From NCBI RefSeq assembly GCF_963921235.1, contig NC_086108.1, forward strand, positions 92,568,001-92,632,000: a DNA stretch of 64,000 bases, read 5' to 3'. Origin of the DNA: Mobula hypostoma (lineage: Eukaryota). Both the position numbers and the translations under genes were made by a program. The notes beneath the pieces were generated by a model, which was given only the letters and a program-made list of their open reading frames with translations, was not told the DNA's origin and did not search any database. Below, piece after piece: positions 1 to 62,021 of this stretch; position 1 is the first letter of the stretch; each line of letters opens with the position of its first letter.

Positions 1-1555
1 ATAACCATAATGAATTATATAAATAACAAAGAATTCTTCTTCATAGAACAAATTTACAATATTACTCAAATATTACTGAAATATTAAATATGCAGTAATT
101 CCTGTCCTGCTTAAATTTGTTTCTTTATTCTTTCAGCTCTATTCCACTCTTTAAGATACATTAAAAGTTTGACCCCAGTGCAGTTAAATGGGAACAACAC
201 TCATTGGTCCCCTGAGAAAAAGAAATCCTTCTCGAGTCTGTATTAAGTGGACAATCCCTTATTCTGAATCTATGCCTTGGAGTTGTAGGTTCCCTCATGA
301 GGGGAAATATCCTTTTCACATATCTGATCTGCTCTCATTTTTATATATGCCAAACTATAGGTCAAATCAAACTTTCCTCCTGGAACAATTTCTTCTCTAA
401 AGTAAGTATCATAGTAAGCGCTCCCCAAATTACCTTTATTGCAACTAAACCCCAAAACTCATCACTTTGTCGTGGTGGTGAGGCTTCTGAGTTCCTGAGA
501 TCCCGAGAGCGATACTGTCTGGAGTTAGCCATCTGGCTCTTAGTTCCTTTGTAAGGTCACCTATGGCAGTAAGGTCAAGAGGGAGGTTCCAGATAAAGAG
601 CGATCAAACCGAGACCTCAGTGGTGTAGCTGGTGGAGGATGATCCAATATCATATCAGCAGTGAGGATAGAGGAAGACTGCAGCAGTGAAGGATTCCCAA
701 TCATCCTGTATTCCACACCACTGGACCCTGACCCCATCTGTCAAGGACTATGTGGGGGCTACTCTTGCATAAAAAAGGTCACGTACTGGGATTCTCCACT
801 AAGGGAATCCAGACTAAAAGCAGATTATGTGAGTCCCGGATGGCCCGCTACAGCCACATGAGAACCCACCAACAGACAAACCCCTTAGCAGAATATCACA
901 CCTAACTGGAGTGATCGCACGACTGAGATTATATCCTAATGTTAAATAGAATATGGTTGAGCCTGATGCCTCAGATGCTGTCTCACCATTCCTTCTTTTA
1001 CATCCCACACCCTTAATAATAAAGGCCAACATTCCATGGCTTTCTGAATTACTTTCTATACCTGTACTTGAACATTGTGTTTCATGTAGAAGAATACTCG
1101 GAACCCCCCGTTCAATAGCATTCTATAATCTTAATTTCAAAAATCTTTTTTCAAAAGTTATTACTAAAGTAAACAACTTTGCATTTTCCACACATTACCT
1201 GAAGAATTTTTTTTCCTGCTCACTTAACTTTTCCATATCCTACTGCAGACTCTTTGTGCCCTCCTCATAATGAGCTTTCCCACCTTTTTTGGTACCATTT
1301 GATGACTATACAGCCAATCCCTTCATTTTAGCCATTCCAGAACTTTGAGCAAAAAACAAACTACTGGAGGTAGTGGTCCAGATGAAGGGTCTCGACTGGA
1401 AGCACCGACTATCCATTTCCCTCTCCCAGACCTGCCTGACCTTCTGAGTTCCTGTATTTGTTTCATGCTCCAAATTCCAGATTCAAGATTGCAGGTGTAG
1501 TGGACAGCGAAGAATGCGATCATGGCTTGCAGAGGGATCTGCATCAGCTGAATTG

Positions 1556-5600: not shown

Positions 5601-6225
5601 CCTATGGCCCAGATCTTTCTCATGACCTTCCACAGCCTCCGAAGAAGCTTTGGGCATTTCTTATACACCTTATAAGGTATACCGCTTGGGCCTGGGGTAG
5701 CTGATGCTTTAGCTTTCCGGATGATGTAGGCTCCTTCACATTCAGCTCAATTGATGGATTTTCTGGTCTACGCACAGCCCGATTGGTTCCTAGTCCCAAA
5801 CTCCTCCGTGGGTCGCTGTGTGCCTCCCGCAGGAACTCCTCTACCTCTGGCTTCAAGCTGGATAGTACACCAGATTTATGAGGGGCATAGATAGGGTAAA
5901 TGCAAACAGACTTATTCCACTGAGGTTGGGTGGAACTACAATCAGAGGTCATGTCTTAAGAGTGAAAGGTGAAATGTTTAAGGGGAACATGAGAGGAAAC
6001 TTTTTCACTCAGAGGGTCGTGAGAGTGTGGAATGAACTGCCAGCACTAGTGATCCAACCAAGCTCAATTCAACATTTAAGAGAAGGTTGGATGGGTACAT
6101 GGATTGTAGGTGTATGGAAGGCTAGTGTCCCGGTGCAGGTCATTGGGAATTGGCAGTTTAAATGGTTTTGGAATGGAATAGATGGGCCGAAGGGCCTGTT
6201 TCTGTGCTGTCTCTATAACTCTATC
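2681..6225 (+). mobile_element. CR1 LINE 3' fragment, split by the HERO-like element (pieces ~2681-3165 and ~5872-6225)
   Basis: WAEKYQMDFNVGKC...LYKTLVRLNLECCVQF, then LIEV, resuming after the insert as MRGIDRVNA...GNFFTQRVVRVWNELP. Confidence 0.88.
3166..5871 (-). mobile_element. HERO/R2-superfamily non-LTR retrotransposon with restriction-like endonuclease; frameshifted and 5'-truncated
   Basis: RT motifs QFRTISLL, WLDLANAY and GFMDDI; CCHC knuckle CKLCGQKGTLAHILSGC; RHDKVL; RLE motif RPDIVLW...IILVELTVPWEE. Confidence 0.88.
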
Positions 6226-6529
6226 TGCAATATCTCGTTTTCTCCTTCCATAATCTCAGTTCTGAGAAAGGATCTTTGACCTGAAATGTTAACCGTTTCG
6301 CTTGCGACAGATGTGGCCTGACCTGCTGAACATTTCCTGCCTTTTCTGTTTTTGTTCAGTTTGTTTGTTTGTCAATCCATCCATCATACTAATGTATTAC
6401 CCCTCCACCACCCACCCAACTCCCCTTCCACCCAGAGCTATGAACCTTTACATCGGGCAGTAACCATATCTTGAATATGAACTGATGCATTTTCTTCCAC
6501 TTTACCCATTTTAAACTTGAGGAAGAGGA

Positions 6530-7090: not shown

Positions 7091-7949
7091 TCTTTACACT
7101 TAATTTATTCAGTTTATGTATTACTTTTCATACCTTGTTTTTATTTCTTGTCTTTACTGCTAGTGACCAGGTATCCACTTGGAATCTACCTGCTAACTAG
7201 TCTGCTATTTGGGACCTTATTATCTATATTTAATTTACACTGCATTACCCCACAGCCCTTACCAAAAAAGTCATTTTAGTTAAATGCGATTTTTCTTTAA
7301 ATACACACTGGCTGATCCTTATTGTTCAATTCCAATTCAATTTTCTCTCAGGTTGTCATTTCTGGTCTTTTCCCAGTGATGTTAAACTGACAAGACCACG
7401 ATTCCCAGATTAACCCTGTTTCCATTTTTCCATAATTTGAAATCCTCTAGTTCCCTGGCACCACCTCAGAGGGAGGGATAGTTTGCAACCAACATCTCTG
7501 CCATATCTAACTTTATTTCCCTCACATTCTTTAATCCATCCTGGCATGTACATTTAAGTATGAGTAATCTTCTCAGTACTTTCTCTATATCTATTAATCT
7601 TGGCTAGCACCCAAGGAAATTCCTCGTTTGTAACTTTAGCGAAGTTCGGTTCCTTGGCTAAGAGTATATTTAGTATGTTGGTCGTTTTTTTTGCCTCCAC
7701 TAGTAGTTCTCTGTTTTGGTTTCCAGTAGATGACAAGGCTCCCATGGTTGTTGGCAGCACCTTTTAACGAATGGTTCATGCTACACAGCAGATTTCTGAG
7801 GCACCCACACACAAAATGCTGGATGAACTCTGCAGGTCGGACAGCATCTTTGGAAAAGAGTAAATACTTGGTGTTTCAGGCCGAGACCCTTCTTCAGGAC
7901 CAGTTTTCTTAGACAATTTTATTTTCTTGTCTCAGATAGTATATTTATA

Positions 7950-8197
7950 TTTTTTGAGATACAGTGCAGAATAGGCCCTTATGGCCCTTCGAATGCATCC
8001 CCCTGAAATCCCCCATTTTAATCCTAGCCTAATCACAAGACAATTTACAAAGACCAATTCACCTACCAACCGGTAAATCTTTGGACTGTGGGAGGAAACC
8101 GGAGCACCCGGAGGAAACCCACTTGGTCACAGGGAGAATGTACAAATTCCTTACAGACAGCAGCAGTAATTGAACCCAGTTCGCTGATACTGTAAAG
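7950..8197 (-). mobile_element. V-SINE/HE1-like SINE; its 5' end is displaced to 12016-12055 by the hAT insertion
   Basis: Core ttggactgtgggaggaaaccggagcacccggaggaaaccc is shared with copies at 24113, 38180 and 62630. The sequence resumes after the ctgtaaag TSD. Confidence 0.75.
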
Positions 8198-8201
8198 CAG
8201 G

Positions 8202-9458
8202 CAACACACACAAAATGCTGGTGAACGCAGCAGGCCAGGCAGCATCTATAGGAAGAGGTACAGTTGACATTTCGGGCCAAGACCCCTCGTCAGGACTAAC
8301 TGAAAGAAGAGATAGTAAGAGATTGAAAGTGGGAGGGGGAAGGGGAGATCCGAAATGATAGGAGAAGACAGGAGGGGGAAGAATGGAGCTAAGAGCTGGA
8401 AAGTTAATTGGCAAAAGGGATACGAGGCTGGAGAAGGGAGAGGATCATGGGATGAGAGGCCTCGGGAGAAAGAAAGGGGGAGGGGAGCACCAGAGGAAGA
8501 TGGAGAGCAGGCAAGGAGTATTTGTGAGAGGGACAGAGAGAGGAAAAAAAAGGGGGAAATAAATAAATAAACAAACAAACAAACAAACAAACAAAGGATG
8601 GGGTAAGAAGGGGAGGAGAGGCATTAACAGAAGTTAGAGAAGTTAGTGTTCATGCCATGAGGTTGAAGGCTACCCAGACAGAATATAAGGTGTTGTTCCT
8701 CCAACCCGAGTGTGGCTTCATTTTGACAATAGAGGAGGCTGTGGATAGACATATCAGAATGGAAATGGGACGTGGAATTAAAATGTGTGGCCACTGGGAG
8801 ATCCTGCTTTCTCTGGTGGACAGAGCGTGGGTGTTCAGCCAAACGGTCTCCCAGCCTGCGTTGGGTCTCAACAATACATAGAAGGCCACGTCGGGAGCAC
8901 CGGACGCAGTATATCACCCCAACCAACTCACAGATGAAGTGTCGCCTCACCTGGAAGGACTGTCTGGGGCCCTGAATGGTGGTAAGGGAGGAAGTGTAAG
9001 GGCATATGTAGCACTTGTTCCGCTTAAAAGGATAAGTGCCAGGAGGGAGATCAGTGAGAAGGGATGGGGGGGTGGTGGGGGATGAATGGACAAGGGAGTC
9101 GAGTAGGGAGCGATCCCTGCGGAAAGCAGAAAGGGCGGGGGAGGGAAAGATTTACTTGATGGTGGGATCCCGTTGGAAGTGGCGGAAGTTACGGAGAATT
9201 GTATGTTGGACCTGGAGGCTGATGGGGTGGTAGGTGAGGACAAGGGGAACCCTATCCCTAGTGGGGTGGCGGGAGGATGGGGTGACAGCAGAGGTACGTG
9301 GAATGGGAGAGAGCAGAATTGACGGTGGAGGAAGGGAAGCCCCTTTCTTTAAAAAAGAAGACATCTCCTTCACCCTGGAATGAAAAACCTCATCCTGAGA
9401 GCAGATGCGGTGGAGACGGAGGAATTGAGAGAAGGGGAGACGGAGGATTGCGAGAAGA
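8202..9458 (-). mobile_element. Penelope-like element, 5'-truncated, GIY-YIG region plus terminal repeat
   Basis: RVPLVLTYHP, HFICELVGVIYCVRCSR, ETQRRLGDRLAEH, VATHFN and LGSLQPHGMN. Flanked by gtaaagcagg (8192-8201) and gtaaagaagg (9459-9468). Confidence 0.9.
8261..8298 (-). ncRNA. Minimal hammerhead ribozyme motif in Penelope terminal repeat
   Basis: Minus strand reads tagtc-CTGACGA-ggggtcttggccc-GAAAT-GTC-aactg. Stem I carries one mismatch. Confidence 0.6.
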
Positions 9459-20474: not shown

Positions 20475-20698
20475 GGTCCTCTCTCCTCTCCTGTCAGGTT
20501 CTTTCTTCCCACCCACCTGGCTTCACCTATCGTCTTCTAGCTATCCTCCTTCCCCTCCCCCCACATTTTTGTTCTGGCATCTTCCCCTTTCCTTTCCAAT
20601 CCTGATGAAGGGTCTAGGCCTGAAACGCCGACAGTTTATTCATTTCCGTAGATGCTGCCTGACCTGCTGAGTTCCTCCAGCATTTTGTTTGTGTTGCA
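20475..20698 (+). mobile_element. Penelope 3' UTR and terminal repeat fragment with degenerate hammerhead motif
   Basis: Pyrimidine-rich UTR, then cCTGATGAagggtctaggcctGAAACgccgac and gatgctgcctgacctgctgagttcctccagcattttg. Confidence 0.8.
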
Positions 20699-21199
20699 TG
20701 AGATTCATTTTCTTGCAGGCACCCACAGGAAAACAAAGAAATACAATACAAGTCATGCAACTAACCAAAAAGAAAAAGTACCGAGAGCGAGAACTGCAGA
20801 GTCCCCTTGAGTGAGTTCACAGACTGTGGAGTATGTTCAGTCCTGAGAGGAGGGAAGCTGGTCCAGAGGCCCGGTAGTTGTAGGACAACTGTTTCTGAAC
20901 CTAGCAGCGTGGCATCAAACCTGTGAACTTGGCCCGGTAGCGAGGAGACGGGTCAAATGCAGCCAGGCGAGACGGACTCAGGTGGGGAACCTTGGCTGCC
21001 ACGGAGTAATGAGGCTGAAAATTCACTCTCACAGATTTTATGCTGGGGAGAAAAAAAGGTAAGTAAAGTAAACACACTTTTTAATCTACTTGCATTTTTT
21101 TGACACATGCATAAACGACATGGCCTTACGGTACAGAAAATCTCCCCTTTTCTAGGTACGTAATTCCTTCCCGTAGCTCAAGGGCTGCCTGTATAGAGA

Positions 21200-28114: not shown

Positions 28115-30120
28115 CATTACGCGAGACAGTGCCAATACAAGAAACAAATACGTAGCAAATACCAATGCCGTGGTCACAAAGGAGGATTTTGCCATCATTC
28201 AATGTCTTCTAAGCTGGAGAAATACTAGGGCAAGAAGTTTCAAAGGCTAACAAAATCTACAAGGAGTTGATGATCCCATTCAAAGTTGACTTTACCACCG
28301 AGAGGTGGTATGTCAACGTATTTATCAACAATCTGTCAGTTAAGCTACAACTTGATACGGCGTTGGGCATCACCACTATCTCCAAACACATGTGGCGGGA
28401 ACTTGGGTCTCCACCAGCCACATCAACTCATGATTCCGCCTGCAGTGTGTCAGATGGAACACTGCAGCTGACTGATGAACTGCCCTGCACGGTGGGGCTG
28501 AACGGTAACCAAGTCAACAGCGTTTGTTACCTAATACACCAGCCTTGGCATTGACTGGACGGGCAAGCTTGAATTCTGGTGCATCCATCTGGATGAGGTC
28601 TATATGAAGATATTGGCCGTTCAAATCATGTCAGTCAACGCCATACCATTATCCGTATGTGAGACCATATAACAACCACTACAACAGCACAATGCAGCAG
28701 TGTTTCAAGATGGTTTAGGTTGCTGCACCAAATTACAAGCAGAATTCCATCTCGGTCCAGACACCAAGCCATTCTGCTGCCCAAAAGACCAGTACCATAA
28801 GCAACCTTGCCAATCATGGGGCAAGAGATAGATCGCCTGCAGCAAATTGGTGTGATCAAAGTTGTGGACTACTCAAATTGGGCATCTCCAATAGTTATTT
28901 ACAAGGAAGCCAATAGTACAGAGACGTTGCATGCAGACTTCTCAACTGGAGTTCAGACTGCGGCTCTGGAGACACACCAGTACCCATTACTGGTACCCGC
29001 AGATCTCTTTACAAAGTTGAATGGTGGTCACTAATCTGCAAAGTTGGACTTGGCTGAAGCCCACCTCCAGGTAGATGTGGCAGAAATGCACAGGAGCTTC
29101 TCACCATTTCAACACATAAGGGGTTGTTTTCCTTCCTCCGCCTGCCTTTGGGTGTAAAGGCAACTCCTTTAATTTTCCAACTGCTTATGGACACCATGCT
29201 GAGTGGTACTGATGGTGTTGCCGTTTACCTCAACGACATCATTATGGTGAGCATGGATCAGGCAGAACTATACCAATGCCTGGACCACAACTGCAAGACT
29301 GGACTGCAACTTCGAACAGAAAAATGCACCATCCTGGTGTCTTCAATCAAGTGTCTGGGTTTCATCATAGATGAGTATGGTCATCACCCAGATGTCGAAA
29401 ACACCACTTCTTTCTTAAAGATGCTTCCACCATCAGATGTCAGCAACTTGCGATGAATTCTGGGCATGATCAGTCATTATTCAGCATTCCTCCCAGCGAG
29501 GCACCGGCTGAGGGAGTCGCTCCAGGCCCTGCTCAATAAGGATGCCACATGGAAATGGTCCAAACAATGCCAAGAGGATTTTGATCAGGTGAAGAATATA
29601 CTGTCATCCGACCTTCTCTTGATGCATTTCAACCCAGAGTTTCCAACCATCGTTGTGACAGATGCATCCAAATACGGGGTGGGTGCTTTCATATCCCATA
29701 TTTTCTTCAATAATTCAGAAAAAGCTGTCATGTGTGCCGTCAGATCACTGACCACAGCAGAAAGGAACTATGGAAAAATTGAGAAGGATGCCTTAGGAAT
29801 CATCTTTGCTGTGAAGAAATTCCACAAGATGCTTCACTCTCCTTACCGATCACAAGCCACCATTGGGCATCTTGGGTCTAAAAATAGCATCCTGGTGTAT
29901 ATAGGAGGGCAGTGATGTTATTGGCCCACAATCAAGTACACGTCAGCCCAGGAACTTGATCAGGTAGCTGCCCTCTCTGGATTTATGAATCACCAGTTTA
30001 CTGAAAATAAAGACACAGTCGTGGCTGTGGTGTCAGTTGACCGCGGTCCACCAGAACGTATCAGATGCTGCTGAGGGTCTTCCAGTCACAGTTGTCCAGA
30101 TAAGAGCCAGGACACAGTTG

Positions 30121-31875
30121 TCGGCTATGTATGGAACCAAAAGAAATGGGGGAGATCTTAAATGGGTTTTTTGCGTCTGTATTCACTAAGGAAACTGGCA
30201 TGGAGTCTATGGAAATAAGGCAAACAAGTAGTGAGGTCATGGAACCTATACAGATTGAAGAGGAGGAGGTGCTTGCTACCTTGAGGCAAATCAGAGTAGA
30301 TAAATCCCCAGGACCTGACAGGGTATTCCCTCAGACCTTGAAGTAGACTAGTGTTGAAATTGCAGGGGCGCTGGCAGATATATTTACAATGTCAGTATTT
30401 GTGGGTGAGCTGCTAGAGGATTGGAGAGTGGCTCATGTTGTTCCATTGTTTAAAAAAGACTCTAAAAGTAATCCGGAAAATTATAGGCCGGTAAGTTTGA
30501 CGTCGGTAGTAGGTAAATTATTGGAAGGAGTACTAAGATTTAGGATCTACAAGTATTTGGATAGACAGGGACTTATTAGGGAGAGTCAACATGGCTTTGT
30601 GCGTGGTAGGTCATGTTTAACCAATCTATTAGAGTTTTTCAAGGAGGTTACCTGGAAAGTGGATGAAGGGAAGGCAGTGGACGTTGTCTACATGGACTTC
30701 AGTAAGGCCTTTGACAAGGTCCCGCATTGGAGGTTAGTTAGGAAGATTCAGTCGCTAGGTATACATGGAGAGGTAGTAAATTGGATTAGACATTGGCTCA
30801 ATGGAAGAAGCCAGAGAGTGGTAGTGGAGGATTGCTTCTCTGAGTGGAGGCCTGTGACTAGTGGTGTGCCACAGGGATCAGTGCTGGGTCCATTGTTAAC
30901 TGTCATCTATATCAGTGATCTGGATGATAATGTGGTAAATTGGATCAGCAAATTTGCTGATGATACAAAGATTGGGGGTGTAATGGACAGTGAGGAAGGT
31001 TTTCAAAGCTTGCAGGGGGATTTGGACCAGCTGGAAAAATGGGCTGAAAAATGGCAGATGGAGTTTAATACAGACAAGTGTGAGGTATTGCACCTTGGAA
31101 GGACAAACCAAGGTAGAACATACAGGGTTAATGGTAAGGCACTGAGGAGTGCAGTAGAACAGAGGGATCTGGGAATACAGATACAAAATTCCCTAAAAGT
31201 GGCGTCACAGGTAGATAGTGTGGTAAAGAGAGCTTTTGGTACATTGGCCTTTATAAATCAAAGTATTGAGTATAAGAGCTGGAATGTTATGATGAGGTTG
31301 TATAAGGCATTGGTGAGGCCGAATTTGGAGTATTGTGTTCAGTTTTGGTCACCAAATTACAGGAAGGATATTAATAAGGTTGAAAGAGTGCAGAGAAGGT
31401 TTACAGGGATGTTGCTGGGACTTGAGAAACTGAGTTACAGAGAAAGGTTGAATAGGTTAGGACTTTATTCCCTGGAGCGTAGAAGAATGAGGGGAAATTT
31501 GATAGAGGTATATAAAATTATGATGGTATAGATAGAGTGAATGCAAGCAGGCTTTTTCCACTGAGGCAAGGGGAGAGAAAAACCAGAGGACATGGGTTAA
31601 GGGTGAAGGGGGAAAAGTTTAAAGGGAACATTGGGGGGGGGCTTCTTCACACACAGAGTGGTGGGAGTGTGGAATGAGCTGCCAGATGAAGTGGTAAATG
31701 TGGGCTCACTTTTAATATTTAAGAGAAACTTGGTCAGGTACATGGATGAGAGGTGTATGGAGGGATATGATCCAGGTGTAGGTCAGTGGGACTAGGCAGA
31801 AAAATGGTTTGGCACAGCCAAGAAAGGCCAAATGCCTGTTTCTGTGCTGTAATGTTCTATGGTTCTATGGTTCTA
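30121..31875 (+). mobile_element. CR1 LINE, 5'-truncated, with 380-aa RT ORF (30389-31531)
   Basis: NYRPVSLTS, QHGFVRGRSCLTNL, DFSKAFDKV, GVPQGSVLGP and KFADDTK. Tail (ttctatgg)n. Confidence 0.95.
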
Positions 31876-32329
31876 ACAGCTGCAGATCCTCTTCTTCAGT
31901 ATATCTCCTCATACCTTGTTGACAGAAGGCCAGCCAAGGTTGAGGAAGATGTCATACTCTTTTACCAACATCATACATGCTCTCAACTGTGGACTCTTGC
32001 CTAATATTTGGAGATAAAATAGTGATGCCACAAATCAGTGTTCTATGGTAGCAAAGAATCTAAGTAGAGCCAATTCACAACCATGGCCTCAGCCTAGCAG
32101 ACCCGGGAGTCAAGTACATGTTGATTTTGCTGGCCCAATCAATGGGTGTATTGACCTTGTCCTGGTTGGTACCTATTCCAAATGGCCAGAAGTATTACCT
32201 GTGAATTCAACAATGACAGAAGCTACCAATCAACAGCTGCTGCAGATCCTCAGCCACTTCGTTTCTGACAAAGGCACTCAATTCAAATCACAGCAGTGTA
32301 CTGCATTCTGCTGGAACAGCTAGGCCAAC

Positions 32330-33886
32330 ACAAAGGCCTGAAGGTGGATAAGTCACCTGGCCCAAATGGACGACATCCCAGAGTCCTGAGAGAGGTTGCT
32401 GAAGAGATAATGGATGCATCAGTCAAGATCTTTCAAGAATCACTTGATTCTGGCATGGTCCTGAAGGACTGGAAGGTTCCAAATGTCACTCCATTCTTTT
32501 AAGAAGCGAAGAAGACCAAAGAAAGAAATTATAGGCCACACACATCAAAGTTACTGGCGAACACAGCAGGCCAGGCAACATCTCTAGGAAGAGGTACAGT
32601 TGATGTTTCGGACCGAGACCCTTCGTCAGGACTAACTGAAGGAAGAGCTAGTAAGAGATTTGAAAGTGAGAGGGGGAGGGGGAGATCCAAAATGATCGGA
32701 GAAGACAGGAGGGGGAGGGATGGAGCCAAGAGCTAGACAGGTGATTGGCAAAAAGGATATGAGAAGATCATGGGACAGGAGGCCCAGGGAGAAGGAAAAG
32801 GGGGAGTGGGGGGAAAACCCAGAGGATGGACAAGGGGTATAGTCAGAGGGAGAAAAAGGAGAGAGAGAGAAAGAATGTGTGTATATAAATAAATAACAGA
32901 TAGGGTATGAGGGGGAGGTGGGGCATTAGCAGAAGTTTGAGAAGTCAATGTTCATGCCATCAGGTTGGAGGCGACCCAGACGGAATATAAGGCATTGTTC
33001 CTCCAACCTGAGTGTGGCTTCATCTTTACAGTAGAGGAGGCCGTGGATAGACATATCAGAATGGGAACCATTCCCATTCTGATATGTCTATCCATGGCCT
33101 CCTCTACTGTAAAGATGAAGCCACACTCAGGTTGGAGGACTATTATCTAAATGGGAAGAAGGTTCAAACATCAGAGGTGCAGAGGGACTTGGGAATCCCC
33201 ATGCAAGACTCCCATAACGTTAATTTACAGGTTGAGTCTGTGGTAAAGGCAGCAAATGCAATGTTGGCATTTTTTCCAAGGGGAATAGAATATAAAAGCA
33301 AGGAGATAATCCTGAGCCTTTATAAGACTCTAGTCAGGCCTCACTTAGAATATTGTCAACAGTTTTGGGCCCCTTATCTCAGAAAGGATGTGTTGTCATT
33401 GGAGAGGGTCCAGAGGAGATTCCTGAGGATGATTACAGGAATGCAGTGATTAGCATATGAGGAGCGTTTGGCAGCTTTGGGCCTGTACTCAATGGAATTT
33501 AGAAGAATATGGGGGGATCTTATTGTAACCTATCAAATGTTGAAAGTACTAGATAGGGTGAATGTGGAGAGGGTGTTTCCTATGGTGGAGGTAGCGGAAC
33601 CAGAGGGCACAGCTTCAAATTTGAGGGGTGACCCTTTAGAACAGAGGTAAGGAGGAATATTTTTAGCCAGAGATTAGTAAATCTGTGGAATGCTCTGCCA
33701 CAGACTGCGGTGGAGGCCAAGTCTGTGGGTATATTTAAGGTGGAAGTTGGTCGCTTCCTGATTGGTCAGGGCATAGTAAGATATGGCAAGAAGGGAGGTG
33801 TATGGGGTTGAGTGGGATCATGATGAAAAGGTGGAGCAGACTCGATGGACTGAATTCTGCTCTTCTGTCTTATGGTGTTGTAGTCT
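32330..33886 (+). mobile_element. CR1 LINE with Penelope insertion and deletion of the RT core
   Basis: KVDKSPGPNGRHPRVLREV...NYRP, then jumps to DYYLNGKKVQTSEVQRDLG...LVRPHLEYC after the insert. Confidence 0.88.
32537..33139 (-). mobile_element. Penelope 3' fragment ending in a fold-back inversion
   Basis: Terminal repeat with tagtc-CTGACGA-agggtctcggtcc-GAAAC-ATC (32597-32634) and the GIY-YIG C-terminus. Inverted repeat arms at 32999-33067 and 33071-33139. Confidence 0.88.
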
Positions 33887-40056: not shown

Positions 40057-40374
40057 GGATGGCACTGGCACTGTGTGGGCACGTGGCCAAATGGTTAAGG
40101 CATTGGACTAGTGACCTGAAGGTCGTGAGTTCGAGCCCCAGCCGAGGCAACGAGCAAGGCACTTAATCACACATTGCTCTGCGACGACACTGGTGCCAAG
40201 CTGTATGGGTCCTAATGCCCTTCCCTTGGACAACATTGGTGTCGTGGAGAGGGGAGACTTGCAGCATGGGCAACTGCTGGTCTTCCATACAACCTTGCCC
40301 AGGCCTGCGCCCTGGAGAGTAAAGACTTTCCAGGCGCAGATCCATGGTCTCGCAAGACTAATGGATGCCTTTAA
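40057..40374 (+). mobile_element. tRNA-derived SINE with 11-bp TSD and 3' stem-loop
   Basis: A box tggccaaatgg and B box gagttcgagccc. Hairpin ctgcgccctggagagt/actttccaggcgcag. TSD taggcacagat at 40046-40056 and 40375-40385. Confidence 0.88.
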
Positions 40375-46109: not shown

Positions 46110-46954
46110 AAATAGGTCAATTTAGGTAACTAATTAAATGTCCTTTTTTTTGATAAAAAAGAAACTACTCTTGGATTTTAGCCAGTGTTTCAAGGAAGGA
46201 AGGGAGTGAACATCTGGCACATATCGATGACCTATCACAGTCTTTGGATGTCCCAAGGAGTTTTGTTGCTAGTTTCATAGCTCTGTTTCATTCAGGCTTA
46301 CATTTTGCTTGGCCACTGCTCTTCCTCAAGACCCTTTTGCAAAGTGTGCACCCCACACGCTTCAGCATTCCCTCATAACTGCACTAACCTGCCATCTCAG
46401 GTTGTGTACTTCAAATGAGGGGCAAGTTAATGGACACAGAGCAATGGCTGGCTCTTTCATAATTACTCATCTGGAACTTCCCACCCACTCTTGATTCCTT
46501 TGTTTTCTTTATTTTGATTCAGAGAATCTACCATTTGAATCACTGGTGCACAAAAAGAAATAAAAACAGAAAATACTGGAAACATTTAACAGGTCAGTCA
46601 TCATATGTAAAAAGAGAAACGGTTCAGGTCAAAGATCTGTCGTCGGATCTGAAAGATTAACTGATTTTCTTTCCACGGATACTGCCCAGCTGCTGTTTTT
46701 CCAGCTATTCCTGTTTTGTTTCAGACTTCCAATTTCTACAGTTCTTTTTACAAAAGAAAGCAATAAATTCTTCAGTGTGAAAGCTGGAATTTGAGAAGCA
46801 GGAAGCCAGTGTTCAATGCAGGTCCTTTAAAACATTAAGTTACTTTAACTAATTAGTGATCATTTGTGTATAACATAGTAATTGGTTAATTGAAGAGGTG
46901 ATGAAAGTGGGAATCCATATTCAAATAAAATAATTTTTAAAAACCTAGAATTTC

Positions 46955-48935
46955 AAGAGAAATTCTGCAGATGCTATAAATCCAAGTAATACACAAAAAT
47001 GCTGGAGGAACTCAGCAGACCAGGCAGCATCTAGGAAAAGATTGCAGTCAACGTTTTGAGCTGAGACCCTTCATTAAGACTGGAAAAAGATGAAAAATCG
47101 GATTAAGAAGGCGGGGGTGCAGAGGAAGAAACACAAGGTGATAGGTGAAACTGGGAGAGAGGGAATGGTGAAGTAAAGAGCTGGAAGTTGATTGGTGAAA
47201 GAGATACAGGGCTGGAGAAGGGGGAATCTGATAGGAGAGGAGAGAAGGCCATGGAAGAAAGAGAAGGGGGAAGAGCAACAGAGGGAGGTAATAGGCAGTT
47301 AAGGAGTTAAGGTGAGAGAGGAAAGCAGGAATGGGAATGGTGAAGGGGAAGAGGGAAAATTACCGGAAGTTCGAGAAATCAGTGTTCATGCCATCAGGTT
47401 GGAGGCTACCCAGACGGAATATAAGCTGTTGCTCCTCCACCCTGAGTGTGGCCTCATCGCGACAGTAGAGGAGGCCATGGATTGACATGTCGGAATGGGA
47501 ATGGGAAGTGGAATTTAAATGGGTGGTCACAGGAGGATCCCTCTTTTTCTTGCAGATAGAGCATAGATGCTTGGCGAAGCAGTCTCCCAATCTACATCTG
47601 GTCTCTACAGGAGACCACACTGGGAGCACTGGATACAGATGATGACCCTAACAAACTCGCAGGTGAAGTGTCCCCTCACCTGGAAGGACTGTTTGGGGCC
47701 CTGGATGGTAGTGAGGGAGGAGGTGCAGAGGCAGGTGTAGCACTTGTTCCGCTTGCAAGGATAAGTACCAGGAGGGAAATTAGTGGGGAGGGACAAATGG
47801 ACAAGGGAGCCATGAAGCGAGTGATCCCTGCGGAAGGCAGAAAGTGGAGGGGAGAGAAAGATGTTCTTGGTGGTGGGATCCCATTGGAGATGTTAGAAGT
47901 TACGGAGAATTTTGTGCTGGATGCGGAGGTTGGTGGGGTGGTAGGTGAGGGCAGACATGCAGGAAATGGAAGAGATGCAGTTGAGGGCAGCATTGATGAC
48001 GGAGGAAGGGAACCCCTTTTCTTTGAAGAAGGAGGACATCTCCTTAGTTCTGGAATGAAAAGCCTCATCCTGAGAGCAGATGTGGTGGAGATGGAGGAAT
48101 TGAGAGAAGGGGATGGCATTTGTTTACAGGTAACAGGGTGGGACGAGGAATAGTCCAGGTAGCTGTGAGAGTCAGTGGGTTTATAATAGACATCAGTAGA
48201 TGAGCTGTCTCCATAGATAGAGACAGTGAGATCGAGAAAGGGGAGGGAGGTATCGGAAATGGACCAGGTAAGTTTGAGGGCAGAATGGAAGTTGAAGGCA
48301 AAGTTGATGGAAGTCAATGAGCTCTGTATGGAGCTGTCGATGTACCATAGGAAAATGCAGTTGTCGACGTAGCATAGGAAAATGCAGTTGTCGACGTAGC
48401 ATAGGAAAAATTGGGAAGTGATACCAGTGTAGGCTTGGAACATAGACTGTTCCATGTAGCTGACGAACGGGCAGGCATAGCCGGGACCTGTGCGAGTGTC
48501 CATGACTACACCTTTTCTTTGAAAGAAGTGGGAGGAACCCAAGAAGCAATTATTGAGAGTGAGGACAAGTTCCGCCATATGGTGGAGAGTGGTGGTGGAG
48601 GGAAACTGGTTGGGTCTAGTGTCCAGAAAGAAATGGAGAGCTTTGAGGCTTTCCTGGTGGGCGATGGAGGTGTATAGGGACTGGGCATCCATGGTGAAAG
48701 TAAGATGCTCGGGGCCAGGGAACTTGAAATCATTGAAAAGATCAAGAACGTGTGAAGTGTCACAGATGTAGGTGGGAACGGACTGAACCGGGTGGATAAG
48801 TTCGGTGGGGCAAACAAGCAGAAACAATGGGTCTCCCTGGACAGGTAGGTTTGTGGATCTTGAGCAGGAGGTAGAAACTGGAGGTGCTGGGTGAGGGAAC
48901 TATGAGGTTGTCCTCCAGCATTTTGTGTGTGTTAC
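46955..48935 (-). mobile_element. Penelope-like element, longest copy (RT core plus GIY-YIG)
   Basis: TMDAQSLYTSI, LTLNN, YVDN/YIDS, LPFLDL, YYKPTDSHSYLDYSSSHP and ETRCRLGDCFAKH. Short inverted terminal-repeat piece at 48911-48935. Confidence 0.92.
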
Positions 48936-49264
48936 CTAATTATAGTGTTGCTTTAACCATTAAGGCATATTGTTCATAGTTATTGATAGGACACTTAACG
49001 TTTGGAAATTATTATTGAGACAGATAAAAACTCTAGGAACTACACACAAGAGATTCTGCAGATGCTGGAAATCCAGAGCAACAAACACAATGTTGAAGGA
49101 CATAAACAGTTCCTGATGTGGGGTCTTGGTTCGAAACGTTGACAGTTTATACCTGTCCTAAGGTGCTGCCTGACCTGCTGAGATCCTCCAGAATTTTTTC
49201 ATTTGTTGCTCCAAGAGCTAAAATTCTTTTATTAATAATAATAAAATTATAATAAATCTAATAA

Positions 49265-49900: not shown

Positions 49901-52900
49901 GATACTGGGAGTCACTTACTTAAGATGAGATGGGGTAATTTGAAAGGAGATGTCAGGGCAACGTTTTTTTTTAAACAGAGGAGTGCTTGCTGCCTGGATT
50001 GTGCCACTAGGAGTGGTGATGGAAGTAAATACAGTAAGAGGCATTTAAGAGACTCTAGGTACATGAATGAGCCAAGAATGGAGCAGTGTGGACATTGCGC
50101 AGGCAGAAGAGATTAGTTTAGTTAGTTGTTTAATAGTTTAATTAGTTTGGTACATCACGCAGTCAGGCTACCGTCAGGCAGGAGACTACGCTACATAAAA
50201 ACAAGAATGGTCAGGCTGAGAAACAGCTTCCTCACTCAAGCCATCAGGTTTTTGAACTCCCTGCCATATCATTTTCGAAGTATCACGAGTTGCTTTGCTC
50301 TTCTCATTTCTATATACATTATATGGTTATATACATGTATATAGTTAAATGATAATTAACTTGACTTGCCAACATCACGGGCTGAAGGACCTATTCCTAT
50401 TCTGGACCGTTCTATGTTCTAAAGCAAGTTATGTACCTCAGATTATACCTGCGTAATTCTACAGTTAAATTGCTGTGTGGGAACACGTCTGAATTCCCCC
50501 TGCATGCTCAGCATGTCAACTGAAAATCCCAATGTTTGTTCCAATTTACTGTAATTCCAGGAAAATTTGCTTCTAGACATTTTATATTTTTGACTACATA
50601 GTTTCCCGGAGATGTTTCTAAAGCTGTCTGCCTTCCTGCAGAGAGTTTGTATGTTTTTTTTTGTTGGGGTTGTGGCACTATCTAACATTTCAAAATCCTG
50701 AGATCACAGGACTGCACACATAAACATCTTTAAGGAGGTCATGTCAGAGGTTCAGAAAAAGACCTTGAGCTTTCAGTGGAACCCATTCAAACCAGTAAAA
50801 TTGCCCATTCCTGCTTCTTGCACTGTTCTTTATTGCTGTGTAAACTTTAATATCTCTAATGAGTCGAGGCCAGAATTTTTAATGTACCAGGTCTCCTACC
50901 CTCTCCACTTTGCTCCCCACCTCCCCCCACCTCACTCCCCACTTCCCCCAACAACCTCTTAATTTACTGGAGTTTTTAATTGTGGATCTCTGTCTTCTGG
51001 AGTGTTTAAACTATTGTAAAAAGTAGAGGTTGTTTCTGCATACATACTGACTGACCTATAAATTGAGCAGAACGATCTGTTGGAAGCCTCTCATCTGAAG
51101 GTTCCTCCCTCTTTTCTTAATGAACATAGTTTTGGAAACAATAATATTTCTTCTCATGCAGAAAGGAAAGTAATCAAACAGCGACAGATATCAGAGCCAC
51201 AGAATCAAACACACACTGGAAAGGCAGGTTTAAGTGAATCCGCAAAAGGTGTGGCAAATTAATATAAGCAACACACATTAAAGAGACCCTTCGTCCTGAC
51301 GTAAACATCGACTGTACCTCTTCCTAGAGATGTTGCCTGGCCTGCTGCGTTCACCAGCAACTTTTATGTGTGTTGCTTGAATTTCCAGCATCTGCAGAAT
51401 TCCTGTTGTTGGCAAATTAATATTGTTGGATAGGGAGTGGAACTATTAATGGAAGAACCATCTGTTATTTGACTGCCTGAAATAAAAGGAGACACTCGCA
51501 ATATGCAAACTCATGAACCAAGCAAAGGAGTTTGCCACTCCACCACTGAACTTAATCACTCAAATCTGATCTGTCTCTCTAACTTTGTGTTAGTTTCTCC
51601 TCTGCACATTCCATGCCACTGCTTGGGTCTATGTTTAAATTTCTCCCACCTTTTTACAGCGAAGCTTGGATGATTGTAAGCTGTTAAGTACTGTATTTGC
51701 TGGTATCTTTGTATATGAAGCCTTTGCCTGGCTCTTGGTTGCTGTCAGTGTTAACTGGATGGCTCCTTGTCTCTGAATCAGTAGAGCGTATCATCACGTT
51801 TTACTCCCAAGGTCAAGCCTGACATCTCATAGCAGTACTGTTGGAGATGATGTCTTTCAGACGAATAAGTTACAGGCTCCATTATCCCTCTTAGAGGGAC
51901 CTTCTGAGGCACCATTTTGAAAAAGAGCAAAAATGTGTATCAACATCAACTTACAAACGAGAGAGTTAATTGCTCAGGGTTTACAGATGCTATAAGCACT
52001 GCGTAACATCAACTCTAATCAAACCCCTGACCAGAGAGATTCTGGACTCCAAGGTTCACAGAAACATTATGGGTCACTGATGGAGTGGTGCACAGTGAGT
52101 AGTGTTCTAGCCCATTAGTCAAGGCCTTAGCTGCTTATTTCAGAATCAGGTTTATAATCACTGACATATGGTGTGAAATTTGTTGTTTTGCTGTACAGTG
52201 TAGTACATCTAATACAATATAACTTGCAATAATATATATTAAAAAAGGGTGGAGTGGAAGAAGCAAATCTTAAAATATTAGGTGTGTGTCTTTGTGCTCT
52301 GTAACTCTTCCCTGATGTGGTAATGATAACAGGGCATTCATTCATAAACATATCTTTTTCCTTCAGAACGAGACCACTGAAGTTTATATATGACGAAAAT
52401 GGCCAAAAGAATTATTATCATCTGTATGTTATGTAGCTGGAGCACAAGACTTGCAGGGCGTTACACAATTAATCACATTCTTTTGCAAATGCAATAGCAT
52501 GTAGGAAGCTCCCACATACAGCAGTAAGTTAATGACCAGATAATCCGTTTCAGAGTAATCTAAAAGATAAAAGAAGTAATCAGCTAGAGGATCAATCCTG
52601 GGCCCAACATATTGATGCAATTACAAAGAATGAACACCATTTATATTTCAACAGGAGTTTGAGGAGAATTGGATTGTAAACAAAATCACTCGCAAATTTC
52701 TACAGATGTACCGTGGAGAACCTTCTAACTGGTGCATCACTGTCTGGTCTGGAGGGCCCGCTACACAGGATTGGAAAAAGCTGCAAGAAATTGTAAACTC
52801 TGCCAGCTCCATCATGGGCACAAGTCTCCCCAGCATCGAGAACACTTTCAAAAGAGAATTCCTCAAAAAGGTGGCATCCATCATTCAGGACCTCCTTCAC

Positions 52901-54804: not shown

Positions 54805-55300
54805 TTAATTTTCTTTTTTATATTTACTTCTTATTGTAATTTATAATTTTTATTGCTTATTGCAATGGACTGCTACTGCAGAACAACAAATTTCACAACA
54901 ACTGCCAGTGATGTTAAACCTGATTCTGATTCTGTTTCTAACACACACAAAATGCTTTTGGAACTCAGTTCAGGCAGCATCTGCGGAAAGGAATACAGAG
55001 TCGACAGTTTGGTACGAGACCCTTCATCAGAATTCCTTTCAGTCACATTAATTGAAGGCTAAGTATTGATTATTGCACCTATAAACTCTGACAAGTATAT
55101 TTGTTGTTGAATGCACACCCTTTGCCAGTCTAATCTGTGCCAAACTATTATCTGCCTAGTCCCATTGGGCTGCATCTGGACTATACCCCTGCATACCCTC
55201 CCCCCCATCCATGTACCTATCCAAATTTCTCTTAAGTGTTGAAATAGAAACTGCATCCAAACTTCTGCTAGCAGCTCGTTCCACACGCACAATACTCTCG

Positions 55301-56786: not shown

Positions 56787-57086
56787 GTAAATTTTGTCTG
56801 CACTCTTTCAATCTTACTGATATCTTTCCTGTAGTTAGGTGACCAGAACTCCACATAATGCTCCAAATTAGGCCTCACCAAAATCTTTTGCAACTTCACC
56901 ATAATATCCCAACTCGTGTACTCAGTACTTTGATTTTTGAAGGCCATTGTGCAAAAGCTCTCTTTATGACCCTGAGTTCCCAGATGCCTCTGTCTTGTCA
57001 AAGCCCTCAGTGCCCTGCCATTTACTGTGCAAGTCCTAATCTAGTTTTACCTCCCAAAGTGCAATACGTCTCACTTGTCTGCGTTA

Positions 57087-57125
57087 AGTTCCTGATGAAG
57101 GGTCTCGACCTGAAATGTTGACTGT
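57087..57125 (+). ncRNA. Minimal hammerhead ribozyme motif in a solitary Penelope terminal repeat (57087-57220)
   Basis: agttc-CTGATGA-a-gggt-ctcg-acct-GAAAT-GTT-gactg. Confidence 0.55.
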
Positions 57126-57476
57126 TTATTCATTTCCATAGTTGCTGCCTAACTTGCTGAGTTCCTCCAGCATTCTGTATGCGTTGCTCTGGATTTCCAG
57201 TACCTGCAGAATCTCTGCCGTTTTTCACCCTATTTTTCCAGCTCTTTAGATCCTGCTGCAAGTTTCGATGGCCTTTCACATTGTCCACTATGCCCGATCT
57301 TGGTGTTATTCGCAGACTTGCTGATTCCGCTTACTATTTTATCATCCAGATCATTGATCTAGATGACGCACAACAACGGACCCAGCACCGCTCTCTGCAT
57401 CACTCCACTAGTCAAGGGCGTCCAGTCAGGGAGGCAACCACCTACTACCTCTCTCTGGCTTCTCTCATGAAGCTAA

Positions 57477-59735: not shown

Positions 59736-59799
59736 TAATCTTTAAAGATTAGGACAGGACCATATACATGGTATTAGCAAACCTGTTTCCTCCTTTTCT

Positions 59800-61085
59800 A
59801 CGCAAACAACAGGAATTCTGCAGATGCTGGAAATTCAAGCAACACACATAAAAGTTGCTGGTGAACGCAGCAGGCCAGGCAGCATCTCTAGGAAGAGGAG
59901 CAGTCAACGTTTCAGGCCGAGACCCTTCGTCAGGACTAACTGAAGGAAGAGTGAGTAAGGGATTTGAAAGTTGGAGGGGGAGGGGGAGATCCAGAATGAT
60001 AGGAGAAGACAGGAGGGGGAGGGATGGAGCCAAGAGCTGGACAGGTGATAGGCAAAAGGGGATACGAGAGGATTATGGGACAGGAGGTCCGGGAAGAAAG
60101 ACAGGGGGGAGGGGACCCAGAGGATGGGCAAGAGCTATATTCAGAGGGACACAGGGAGAAAAAGGAGAGTGAGAGAAAGAATATGTGTATAAAAATGAGT
60201 AACAGATGGGGTACAAGGGGGAGGTGGGGCTTTAGCGGAAGTTAGAGAAGTCAATGTTCATGCCATCAGGTTGGAGGCTACCCAGATGGAATATAAGGTG
60301 TTGTTCCTCCAACCTGAGTGTGGCTTCATCTTTACAGTAGAGGAGGCCATGGATAGACATGTCAGAATGGGAATAGGATATGGAATTAAAATGTGTGGCC
60401 ACTGGGAGATCCTGCTTTCTCTGGCGGACAGAGCGTAGGTGTTCAGCAAAGCGGTCTCCCAGTCTGCGTCGGGTCTCGCCAGTATATAAAAGGCCACATC
60501 GGGAGCACCGGACGCAGTATATCACCCCAGCCGACTTACAGGTGAAGTGTTGCCTCACCTGGAAGGACTGTTTAGGGCCCTGAATGGTGGTAAGGGAGGA
60601 AGTGTAAGGGCATGTGTAGCACTTGTTCCGCTTACACGGATAAGTGCCAGGAGGGAGATCAGTGGGGAGGGATGGGGGGGACGAATGGACAAGGGAGTTG
60701 CATAGGGAGCGATCCCTGCAGAATGCAGAGAGACGGGGGGAGGGAAAGATGTGCTTCGTGGTGGGATCCCGTTGGAGGTGGCGGAAGTTACGGAGAATAA
60801 TATGTTGGACCCGGAGGCTGGTGGGGTGGTAGGTGAGGACCAGGGGAACCCTATTCCTAGTGGGGTGGCGGGAGGATGGAGTGAGAGCAGATGTACGTGA
60901 AATGGGGGAGATGCGTTTAAGAGCAGAGTTGATAGTGGAGGAAGGGAAGCCCCTTTCTTTAAAAAAGCAAGACATCTCCCTCATCCTAGAATTTCACGAA
61001 GGGTCTCGGCCTGAAACATTGACTGCACCTCTTCCTAGAGATGCTGCCTGGCCTGCTGCATTCACCAGCAACTTTTATGTGTGTT
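59800..61085 (-). mobile_element. Young Penelope-like element, 5'-truncated, with intact GIY-YIG frame and inverted terminal repeat
   Basis: 250-aa ORF 60232-60984 (FKERGFP, FTCKSAGVIYCVRCSRCGLLYTGETRRRLGDRFAEH, LQPDGMNIDF). 60996-61085 is the reverse complement of ~59842-59930. Confidence 0.94.
59901..59938 (-). ncRNA. Minimal type I hammerhead ribozyme motif, best-preserved copy
   Basis: Minus strand reads tagtc-CTGACGA-a-gggt-ctcg-gcct-GAAAC-GTT-gactg. Stem I agtc/gact, stem II gggt/gcct, palindromic ACGT stem III. Confidence 0.72.
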
Positions 61086-62021
61086 CCTCCTTTTCTACTG
61101 CCACTCTCCTTTGCTCCAAAACAAAAACAGTGAAATACACACCTATTTCCTCCCCAGTATCTCCAGATGTCTTTCTGGTGAATGTGGCAACGTTGCTCCT
61201 GCCTCTTCTGAATCAGAAAGAACCGATGTATATGCATAGAGGATGTTTGAAAAGTTGTTTTGTTTTCCCACAGGAATGAGGAATGGAGGTGTTTAGGGAA
61301 ACCTAATGGAAATTTCTAAAATTAGGATTTTTTTTTAAGGTAACTAACAGACAGCACCGATTGGTGTATGTGTAACAAGGGAGAGTTAAGTGAAGATTCT
61401 CCGTAGAAATAAGGAAGGGAAATAGAGATTATTTTTCATGCTCGGAGTTATTTATGCTGTATGAGCAGTAACTGAGGCAGAGGCTATAATACTAATTATG
61501 CATGCGACCTTAAATTCAGATATATAAATATATGCAGGGAATGCCATTGAGCCACATAGCTCGAACTGAAGAGATCTTATCCACACAAAGCCAAGTGGCC
61601 TTCTGTCCTGTTGTTTGCACGATCCTGCAGGAAATAATTTTAAATAGGATTATCAAAAGCCAGCAATTAAAACCAAACCATTTTAATTGGTCAAAGTTTA
61701 CTGTGGGCAGCTGGTCACAAGCAAGTAGGTGGTCATTCTTTGGTAACTCTGGTTTTCTTCCCCATTCCTCAGCAAAATTGATTGGAATTTCTGTTGAATA
61801 AGCTGAATTTTAGACCAGAAAAACAGGTTTACTTAGATATCAGGCTTCCAACCACAGCTTATAATTACCACACATAAGGGATAGGGAAGCAGTAGGATGA
61901 GTGTTCTGTCTGGTTTATCGAGACACCATGGACTGAACTAAACACATGTAAGCACCATCACAAAGAAGGCACACCAGCACCTCAACTTAGATTTTTGCAT
62001 GGATTTGGTATGTCAGCTAAA

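What the first reader, a model, noticed from the sequence alone, without database searches (positions are those of the whole stretch)
59901..59938. Minimal hammerhead ribozyme motif repeated about 10 times in Penelope terminal repeats
Seen: the Penelope-sense strand reads (t)agtc-CTGA(C/T)GA-a-gggt-ctcg-(g/a)cc(c/t)-GAAA(C/T)-GT(C/T)-gact(g). This is the hammerhead core in type I topology: stem I agtc/gact, a 4-bp stem II with a tetraloop, and stem III reduced to the palindrome ACGT. Copies lie at 59901-59938(-), 8261-8298(-), 32597-32634(-), 57087-57125(+) and 20598-20634(+), with degenerate ones near 1378, 6260, 7871, 47045, 49110, 55000 and 60996. Variation falls at the tolerant N7 position (C/T/A) and often keeps stem II pairing (gccc, gcct, acct). 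Known: Penelope-like elements carry minimal hammerheads thought to cleave as dimers. Inference: this genome holds a very large dispersed population of such motifs, some of which could cut host pre-mRNA.
Basis: partly seen in the sequence, partly recalled or inferred. Interest (0 to 1): 0.75.

Follow-up and report, generated by a model that had tools for sequence, protein, structure and literature searches.

The report
Penelope retrotransposon minimal hammerhead, mostly uncut
This is a real copy of the small hammerhead RNA motif already known from the end repeats of Penelope-like jumping genes, present over 50,000 times in this genome; nearly all copies run straight through the predicted cut site, so it is likely an ordinary, weakly active motif and probably no large threat to host messages.

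Summary
The motif is real: a minimal type-I hammerhead in the end repeat (pLTR) of a Neptune-type Penelope-like element, a kind published in 2014. One 32-base form occurs 51,609 times genome-wide. A full-length copy has pLTR, a 1043-aa RT/GIY-YIG frame, and pLTR. The hammerhead is conserved between an old and a young subfamily (2 of 36 columns differ, against 20 of 25 upstream), but so is a block downstream. Host-RNA cutting found no support: intact copies in 1.3 Mb of neurexin and CNTNAP-like introns lie 16 sense to 22 antisense, p=0.42 (weak test). Side result: 5' ends pile up at the hammerhead's 5' edge (30 of 100 versus 4 and 3 of 100). Only 61 of about 19,000 youngest copies start exactly at the cut site, a small excess over neighbouring positions (8-28). 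Templates were therefore almost always uncut. The scan noted this motif and the pile-up before, in this genome and in others. Interest is low.

The parts
59902..59937 (-). Minimal type-I hammerhead motif; predicted cut between 59906 and 59905 (GUU triplet); G10.1.U11.1 wobble
59850..59887 (-). Block +18..+55 after the cut site, as conserved between subfamilies as the hammerhead; forms part of a predicted hairpin upstream of the two 3' end sites
59802..59841 (-). About 40-base optional 'tail' between the two 3' end classes (about +64 and about +101); in full-length copies it overlaps the start of the open frame
60232..60993 (-). 5'-truncated end of the element's open frame: linker C-x4-C-x2-C finger and GIY-YIG endonuclease with CCHH residues
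   Evidence: (PF01541, E 1.5e-4)
60996..61083 (+). Inverted short arm of the same insertion; starts inside the core (lacks CUG) and ends at about +64
59787..59801 (+). Left copy of a 15-bp target-site duplication
61084..61098 (+). Right copy of the 15-bp target-site duplication
57078..57223 (+). Older-subfamily pLTR fragment; passes the loose intactness filter (3 of 4 stem I pairs, U.G at 15.2-16.2)
8180..8336 (-). pLTR end of a truncated copy; core kept, stem I closing pair broken
32527..32673 (-). pLTR end of a truncated copy; core kept, palindrome and stem I closing pair broken
20558..20706 (+). Older pLTR fragment; U16.1 changed to C, core broken
46954..47117 (-). Decayed pLTR at the end of an older element body; core broken
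7806..7903 (-). Decayed pLTR fragment; core broken
6223..6349 (+). Decayed fragment of an older type with U2.1-A1.1 in stem I
1375..1484 (+). Decayed pLTR fragment; core broken
49111..49214 (+). Decayed pLTR fragment with inverted partner at 49042-49100
54940..55033 (-). Decayed pLTR fragment
51303..51410 (+). Young short copy starting 7 bases before the cut site; no CUGA box

Best explanation
The motif is the minimal hammerhead that Penelope-like retrotransposons carry in their end repeats; it likely cuts only slowly, as a dimer or with the element's own protein, and the copy at 59901 is a passenger in a truncated, probably inert insertion. Shown here: the full element is pLTR, a 1043-aa RT plus GIY-YIG frame, pLTR, with two identical hammerheads 3513 bases apart and the cut site about 60 bases ahead of the first ATG. 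Copies end at about +64 or about +101 after the cut site, are 5'-truncated, and often carry an inverted second arm and a target-site duplication. Inferred: reverse transcription starts internally at those two sites, as shown in vitro for an Anolis element, and reads back through the uncut hammerhead. When it starts on the 5' leader it likely runs off near -32, which may be the start of the element's RNA, and leaves 95-140-base solo inserts. The large population of motifs is therefore a by-product of how the element is copied. Selection acts on master elements, and inserted copies decay.
For: Architecture. Copy number: (51,609; control 0); 403 fragments, 231 full-span and 45 intact in 1.404 Mb. 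Old (n=111) versus young (n=57) subfamily: 0 of 11 core columns and 2 of 36 motif columns differ (N7, 11.1), against 20 of 25 upstream and 6 of 14 in the linker. One compensatory change in an older type: U2.1 goes with A1.1 in 17 of 26 rows versus 55 of 205, p=1.7e-4. In old copies the core decays as fast as the downstream block (13.9% versus 12.9%). 3' ends cluster at +62..+71 and +87..+108. 5' ends: 30 of 100 at -38..-30, of which 21 at -33..-30, versus 4 of 100 upstream and 3 of 100 around the cut site; p<4e-6. 7 of 9 non-inverted short inserts shown have 10-15-bp duplications, 5 of them within 1 base of the 5' end. The active dimer is computed 10.5 kcal/mol less stable than two misfolded monomers for the youngest form. 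Literature: PMC4209133, PMC11167929.
Against: No cleavage was measured. There is almost no covariation: the stems are identical between the two large subfamilies, and the single compensatory change is one evolutionary event, partly confounded with CpG decay. The block at +18..+55 is as conserved as the motif (5 of 38; p=0.43), so conservation need not reflect catalysis. The youngest subfamily has G.U in place of the usual G10.1-C11.1. The 36-51-base motif folds no better than shuffles (z about 0.5). The RNA start at -32 rests on breakpoints and a recalled initiator consensus, with no RNA data.
Confidence: 0.75

Rival explanations
1. In this lineage the motif is vestigial as a ribozyme. It is kept because the same bases serve as promoter, splice acceptor or protein-binding site at the start of the element's RNA.
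For: The downstream block is equally conserved. The youngest subfamily changed U7 to C and C11.1 to U; C7 strengthens an inactive extension of stem I (monomer -10.0 versus -6.0 kcal/mol for the open form). More than 99% of youngest copies read through the cut site. The start of stem I reads as an initiator-like and a splice-acceptor-like sequence (recalled consensus).
Against: All 11 core columns are fixed across three clusters and the only changes fall at tolerated positions. The U2.1-A1.1 swap keeps stem I. 5' ends show a small excess exactly at the cut site. The homologous Anolis motif cleaves when the protein is added (PMC11167929).
Confidence: 0.17
2. One reading: dispersed copies cut host pre-mRNA often enough to matter, for example by pairing between two same-strand copies in one long intron.
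For: About 12 intact sense copies per Mb of intron (16 in 1.3 Mb). All fragments lie 165 sense to 198 antisense (p=0.093), and solo fragments 70:105 to 101:135 (p=0.01-0.03), while one LINE control is even (98:97). In the chromosome-1 neurexin alone, intact copies lie 3:10. A preprint reports related retrozymes under-represented in Xenopus introns (10.64898/2026.07.22.740005).
Against: Intact versus non-intact copies do not differ in orientation (Fisher p=0.73). The solo excess is strongest in fragments without the 5' core (14-17 sense, 31-33 antisense), and a second LINE control is more skewed (11:34). The other three genes give 13:12 for intact copies. Published monomers do not cleave and dimers cleave weakly (PMC4209133). 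No host exon was recognised in the window (not exhaustive).
Confidence: 0.06
3. On the side result only: the pile-up of 5' ends at -33..-30 comes from polymerase stalling, fold-back of the new DNA through stem I, or the splice-acceptor-like site, not from an RNA start.
For: The two stem I strands give microhomology, and many inverted junctions use it. A branch-point-like heptamer, pyrimidine tract and CAG precede the motif, and the intron of D. virilis Penelope ends at helix I (PMC4209133). Ends are also raised at -29..-18.
Against: 11 of 12 non-inverted ends in the listing fall at -33..-30. Target-site duplications abut the 5' end with no shared upstream exon.
Confidence: 0.4
4. The hammerhead look is chance within a repeat.
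For: No Rfam hammerhead hit; folding z-score about 0.5.
Against: Descriptor 40 hits versus 0 in shuffles, 39 of 40 within this family; the position in the pLTR just ahead of the open frame matches published elements.
Confidence: 0.02

Closest known systems
Minimal hammerheads (min-HHR) of metazoan Penelope-like elements (Cervera and De la Pena 2014, PMC4209133; Lunse et al. 2017, seen only as cited in PMC6765202)
   Same: Type I topology, 4-bp helix I, no helix III beyond a palindromic 15.2-16.2, an extra base between 9 and 10.1, location in both pLTRs, mostly solo copies, close opposite-strand pairs; reported in Xena, Poseidon and Neptune elements of fish.
   Different: At least 51,609 exact copies against about 4,000 (coelacanth) and 9,000 (Xenopus) in that paper, counted by a different method. 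Helix II is short (4 bp). The youngest subfamily has G10.1.U11.1 in place of G-C.
Poseidon element PAc of Anolis carolinensis (Frangieh et al. 2024, PMC11167929)
   Same: Hammerhead at the pLTR-ORF junction; two 3' end sites 30-40 bases apart; uncut RNA is the main template.
   Different: This element has the linker zinc finger of Neptune type. Its first ATG lies about 60 bases after the cut site instead of inside stem II. The pile-up of 5' ends at stem I is not described in the parts of that paper I read.
Neptune clade of endonuclease-positive Penelope-like elements (features as given in bioRxiv 10.1101/2021.04.23.441226)
   Same: C-terminal GIY-YIG with CCHH, linker CX2-5CxxC finger, partial tandems, inverted 5'-truncated partner, 30-40-bp tail.
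   Different: No tree was built, so the clade name rests on motifs.
Animal non-LTR retrozymes (10.64898/2026.07.22.740005)
   Same: Short non-coding, pLTR-related units with a type I hammerhead.
   Different: Copies here are dispersed truncations of an autonomous element with target-site duplications, not tandem arrays.

Membership tests
PLE minimal hammerhead | Core boxes CUGANGA, GAAA and U-H at 16.1-17 | tested here: met
   Focal copy; 0 of 11 core columns differ among three clusters
PLE minimal hammerhead | Type I topology with short helix I and a helix II hairpin | tested here: met
   4+4 pairs in the focal copy; both stems appear in the predicted fold
PLE minimal hammerhead | Palindromic 15.2-16.2 with no intramolecular helix III | tested here: met
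   ACGU self-duplex -3.1 kcal/mol; CG is the commonest state in both large subfamilies
PLE minimal hammerhead | [quoted passage not shown] | tested here: met
   A in 99 of 111 old and 54 of 57 young copies
PLE minimal hammerhead | G10.1-C11.1 pair (typical of the family, not part of the published descriptor text I read) | tested here: inconclusive
   G-C in the old subfamily (C in 71 of 111), G.U in the focal copy and the youngest subfamily; still a pair
PLE minimal hammerhead | Located in the pLTRs of a PLE | tested here: met
   Both pLTRs of L041
PLE minimal hammerhead | Self-cleavage as a dimer or with protein | not testable with these tools
   No raw RNA reads were offered; only an indirect, small excess of DNA ends at the cut site
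EN+ Penelope-like element, Neptune type | Single frame with RT and C-terminal GIY-YIG | tested here: met
   1043 aa; RVT_1 E 6e-5 and GIY-YIG E 0.002, both under Pfam's cut-off
EN+ Penelope-like element, Neptune type | CCHH motif in the endonuclease and CX2-5CxxC linker finger | tested here: met
   Read from the translation against the definition
EN+ Penelope-like element, Neptune type | pLTRs, inverted truncated partner, optional 30-40-bp tail, target-site duplication | tested here: met
EN+ Penelope-like element, Neptune type | Placement in the Neptune group on an RT tree | not tested
   No reference sequences were fetched
Non-LTR retrozyme | Tandem arrays of short non-coding units | tested here: not met
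   Window copies are dispersed singles or inverted pairs; several are attached to the end of the coding frame

The most novel reading that the evidence does not exclude
The genome holds a fossil record of this ribozyme's activity in the germ line. About a fifth of young copies start at the first bases of stem I, a likely RNA start, while only about 0.2-0.7% start exactly at the scissile bond, a 3-4-fold excess over neighbouring positions. That would mean roughly 1 cut template per 30-100 uncut leaders. The most amplified subfamily also carries two changes (C7, U11.1) predicted to damp folding into the active form, which may be what lets a host tolerate some 100,000 intact motifs.
Probability: 0.2. 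Interest if true: 0.5.

Novelty: new member of a known kind. Interest (0 to 1): 0.18.

Why it matters
As given, it matters little: hammerheads in Penelope end repeats have been in print since 2014, including in fish. What such motifs do in the cell is still open. This genome's copy number makes that question measurable from DNA alone: where reverse transcription ran off, how often at the cut site, and whether intact motifs are purged from the sense strand of introns. My partial tests say the RNA is copied uncut in more than 99% of cases and give no sign of host-level harm.

Tried and rejected
Rfam found no hammerhead family. No RNA holder was listed and all runs were contigs, so RNA ends could not be read. 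Laying 4 of 23 runs on one pLTR plus the open frame showed no GT..AG joint among the 15 joints printed (140 not shown); this is uninformative on splicing. A spliced upstream exon as the cause of the pile-up: no shared upstream sequence in the short inserts shown; 4 of the 20 loci fetched for this did not match my anchor and were dropped. Covariation: only pair 2.1-1.1 gave a clear signal; 10.2-11.2 gave p=0.03, and three other stem II tests gave none. Other hammerhead families in the 1.404 Mb sample: 1 descriptor hit outside this family, not followed. Host gene in the window: none recognised among unmasked frames of 65 aa or more, judged by eye, so the window's genic context is unknown. A single wide view of 5' ends was not obtained; they were sampled in separate short windows, and -29..-12 is covered only by the 72-hit block sample. 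Lunse et al. 2017 is not held. Text search of the supplements of PMC11167929 gave no hits, and their figures are not held. No homologue search, fold or tree was run.

Full report
Numbering. Position 0 is G1.1, the first base 3' of the predicted cut; stem I begins at -32. Counts from pattern listings are my hand counts. The first three listings show only the first 100 places of contig 1.

1. Observation. The motif at 59901-59938 (-) is as described. A profile grown from 7 natural copies gave 403 hits in 1.404 Mb (window, 40 kb of flanks, 1.3 Mb of introns) and 0 on reversed DNA. Of these, 231 span the motif, 62 keep the core and 45 pass an intactness filter. The window holds 21 fragments: 10 full-span, 4 core-intact, 2 intact. 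The focal copy has a GUU triplet, which I recall as less active than GUC. A homology-free descriptor gave 40 hits, 39 in this family, and 0 in three shuffles. Rfam does not see it.

2. Context. The focal motif lies about 295 bases after the stop of a GIY-YIG frame. It is the long arm of one insertion, 59802-61083, with an inverted short arm at 60996 and a 15-bp target-site duplication. A protein search gave 233,290 first-look candidates, 150 scored. Of 6 long-frame loci fetched, L041 is complete: 720-bp direct repeats, a 1043-aa frame, and two identical motifs 3513 bases apart. Its protein has RT motifs, a C-x4-C-x2-C linker finger and a CCHH GIY-YIG domain, the Neptune pattern as defined. One 32-place pattern matches 51,609 times in the 3.48-Gb genome, control 0. 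Scaling the non-random sample gives about 110,000 intact motifs and about a million fragments. The host is a vertebrate with three neurexin genes. 'Cartilaginous fish' is my recall and the earlier notes' label, not tested.

3. Conservation. Between the old (n=111) and young (n=57) clusters, 2 of 36 motif columns differ (N7 U to C; 11.1 C to U), against 20 of 25 upstream (p=1.5e-9; low-complexity, alignment uncertain), 6 of 14 in the linker (p=0.004) and 5 of 38 in the block +18..+55 (p=0.43). Clustering used 220 of 403 rows; a third cluster had 7 rows. In old copies the core decays at 13.9% against 12.9% for the block. In young copies it is 1.4% against 3.7%, but the block set still holds sub-lineage sites. 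An older type swaps C2.1-G1.1 for U-A (17 of 26 versus 55 of 205, p=1.7e-4), one event. The motif is thus kept in master elements, with neighbours kept equally, and decays after insertion.

4. Ends of copies. In 72 young hits, 3' ends cluster near +64 and +87..+108; 5' starts pile at -33..-27 (16 hits), with none at -6..+6. The two 3' classes match the two internal start sites and tail shown for the Anolis element. Listings: 30 of 100 break at -38..-30, 21 of them at -33..-30, one ambiguous row left out; 4 of 100 at -56..-46; 3 of 100 at -11..0; Fisher p=3.7e-6 and 7.8e-7 using 28. Of 9 non-inverted short inserts shown, 7 have 10-15-bp duplications and none shares an upstream exon. Stem I begins within a sequence fitting the recalled initiator YYANWYY and also a splice acceptor. 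I favour run-off at an RNA start (about 0.55) over stalling, fold-back or splicing.

5. Is there a trace of cutting? Exact 5' breaks genome-wide in the youngest subfamily (19,041 anchored copies): position 0, 61; -5, 21; -2, 8; +1, 14; +3, 13; +4, 28. Rows whose visible flank is not from the pLTR number about 18 at position 0 against about 6, 3, 4, 3, 4 (Poisson p=2.5e-7 against a mean of 4; spread between positions not modelled). I fetched 20 of the 61: 14 have unrelated flanks, 4 are long inverted arms and 2 are element-derived; 5 of the 14 have an 8-15-bp duplication within 4 bases. Against reading this as cleavage: many of the 61 use microhomology between the stem I strands, and 6 of the 14 carry 1-4 added bases that fit fold-back of the new DNA, which pools ends at 0 and +1. 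Without those the excess is about two-fold (p about 0.02). At most about 0.7% of copies came from cut RNA.

6. Folding. The monomer prefers an inactive extension of stem I (-10.0 versus -6.0 kcal/mol). The active dimer scores -9.5 against -20.0 for two monomers and -28.3 for the best dimer in the youngest form. The gap to two monomers is 10.5 for C7/U11.1, 9.1 for C7/C11.1, 6.9 for U7/U11.1 and 6.0 for one U7/C11.1 copy with other changes. These models ignore core tertiary contacts and bound protein.

7. Host pre-mRNA. In 1.3 Mb of introns from three neurexins and one CNTNAP-like gene (named by eye), sense to antisense counts are 165:198 for all (p=0.093), 16:22 for intact (p=0.42) and 149:176 for non-intact; intact versus non-intact p=0.73. 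After removing inverted partners at four distance cut-offs: 101:135 to 70:105 (p=0.03-0.01), intact 9:15 to 4:10 (not significant), and fragments lacking the 5' core 17:33 to 14:31. LINE controls gave 98:97, 11:34, 2:1 and 0:0; the element's coding body gave 14:17. The test is weak (38 intact copies, 4 genes) and shows no effect tied to an intact ribozyme.

8. Known work. PMC4209133 (parts 1-2 of 4 read) describes this motif type, its pLTR location, solo and opposite-strand copies, Neptune elements of fish, no monomer activity and weak dimer activity. PMC11167929 (parts 1-2 of 4) shows protein-assisted cleavage, insertion from uncut RNA, and no RNA reads ending at the cut site. I read the outline and Results part 1 of 2 of 10.64898/2026.07.22.740005, and passages of PMC6765202, 10.1101/2021.04.23.441226, PMC2377424 and PMC3846280. 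Lunse 2017 was seen only as a citation. Seven searches listed no title or abstract opening on 5' ends piling at the hammerhead; subscription papers, figures and preprint supplements were not visible and may bear on this. The scan has noted this motif many times in this genome (91 notes fit 'hammerhead') and the pile-up here and in two other windows of other genomes. I had the pile-up before those look-ups.

9. Verdict. A real feature, a new member of a known kind, with an unusually high copy number. The host-cutting inference is unsupported. Interest 0.18.

Noticed in passing
window 3159-5864 (-): Broken non-LTR element with RT pieces (PF00078) and a C-terminal segment that looks like a restriction-like endonuclease of HERO/R2 type (recalled); not among the repeats masked by 1.3 Mb of other sequence.
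   Followed up: no
window 9769-11804 (-): Broken DNA transposon with a Spin-doc zinc finger (PF18658), probably hAT-like.
   Followed up: no
window 28213-32320 (+): Broken LTR-retrotransposon-like pieces (RT and RNase H by Pfam; an integrase-like segment by eye), interrupted by a LINE RT frame at 30347-31531.
   Followed up: no
window 33017-33139: Long hairpin that scores weakly as microRNA families in Rfam; it is the head-to-head junction of two Penelope endonuclease fragments.
   Followed up: partly
window 40077-40139 (+): Weak tRNA-like match (22.7 bits), possibly the head of a SINE.
   Followed up: no
L041 3040-3095; window 59938-59965 (-): Branch-point-like heptamer, pyrimidine tract and two AGs directly before the hammerhead; the second AG is part of stem I. 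No spliced form was seen.
   Followed up: partly
G000, listing: 14 of 28 rows are 7 perfect head-to-head palindromes centred on a short self-complementary run at +4..+7, showing that local sequence steers junctions.
   Followed up: no
block C1_22.6, position 104011 (-) (G000 C1 near 22,704,000): One hammerhead-descriptor hit unrelated to this family, with a longer stem II.
   Followed up: no
introns sampled in L051-L180: The LINE family represented by window 27388-28116 lies 11 sense to 34 antisense (p=0.001), a stronger bias than the Penelope fragments.
   Followed up: no
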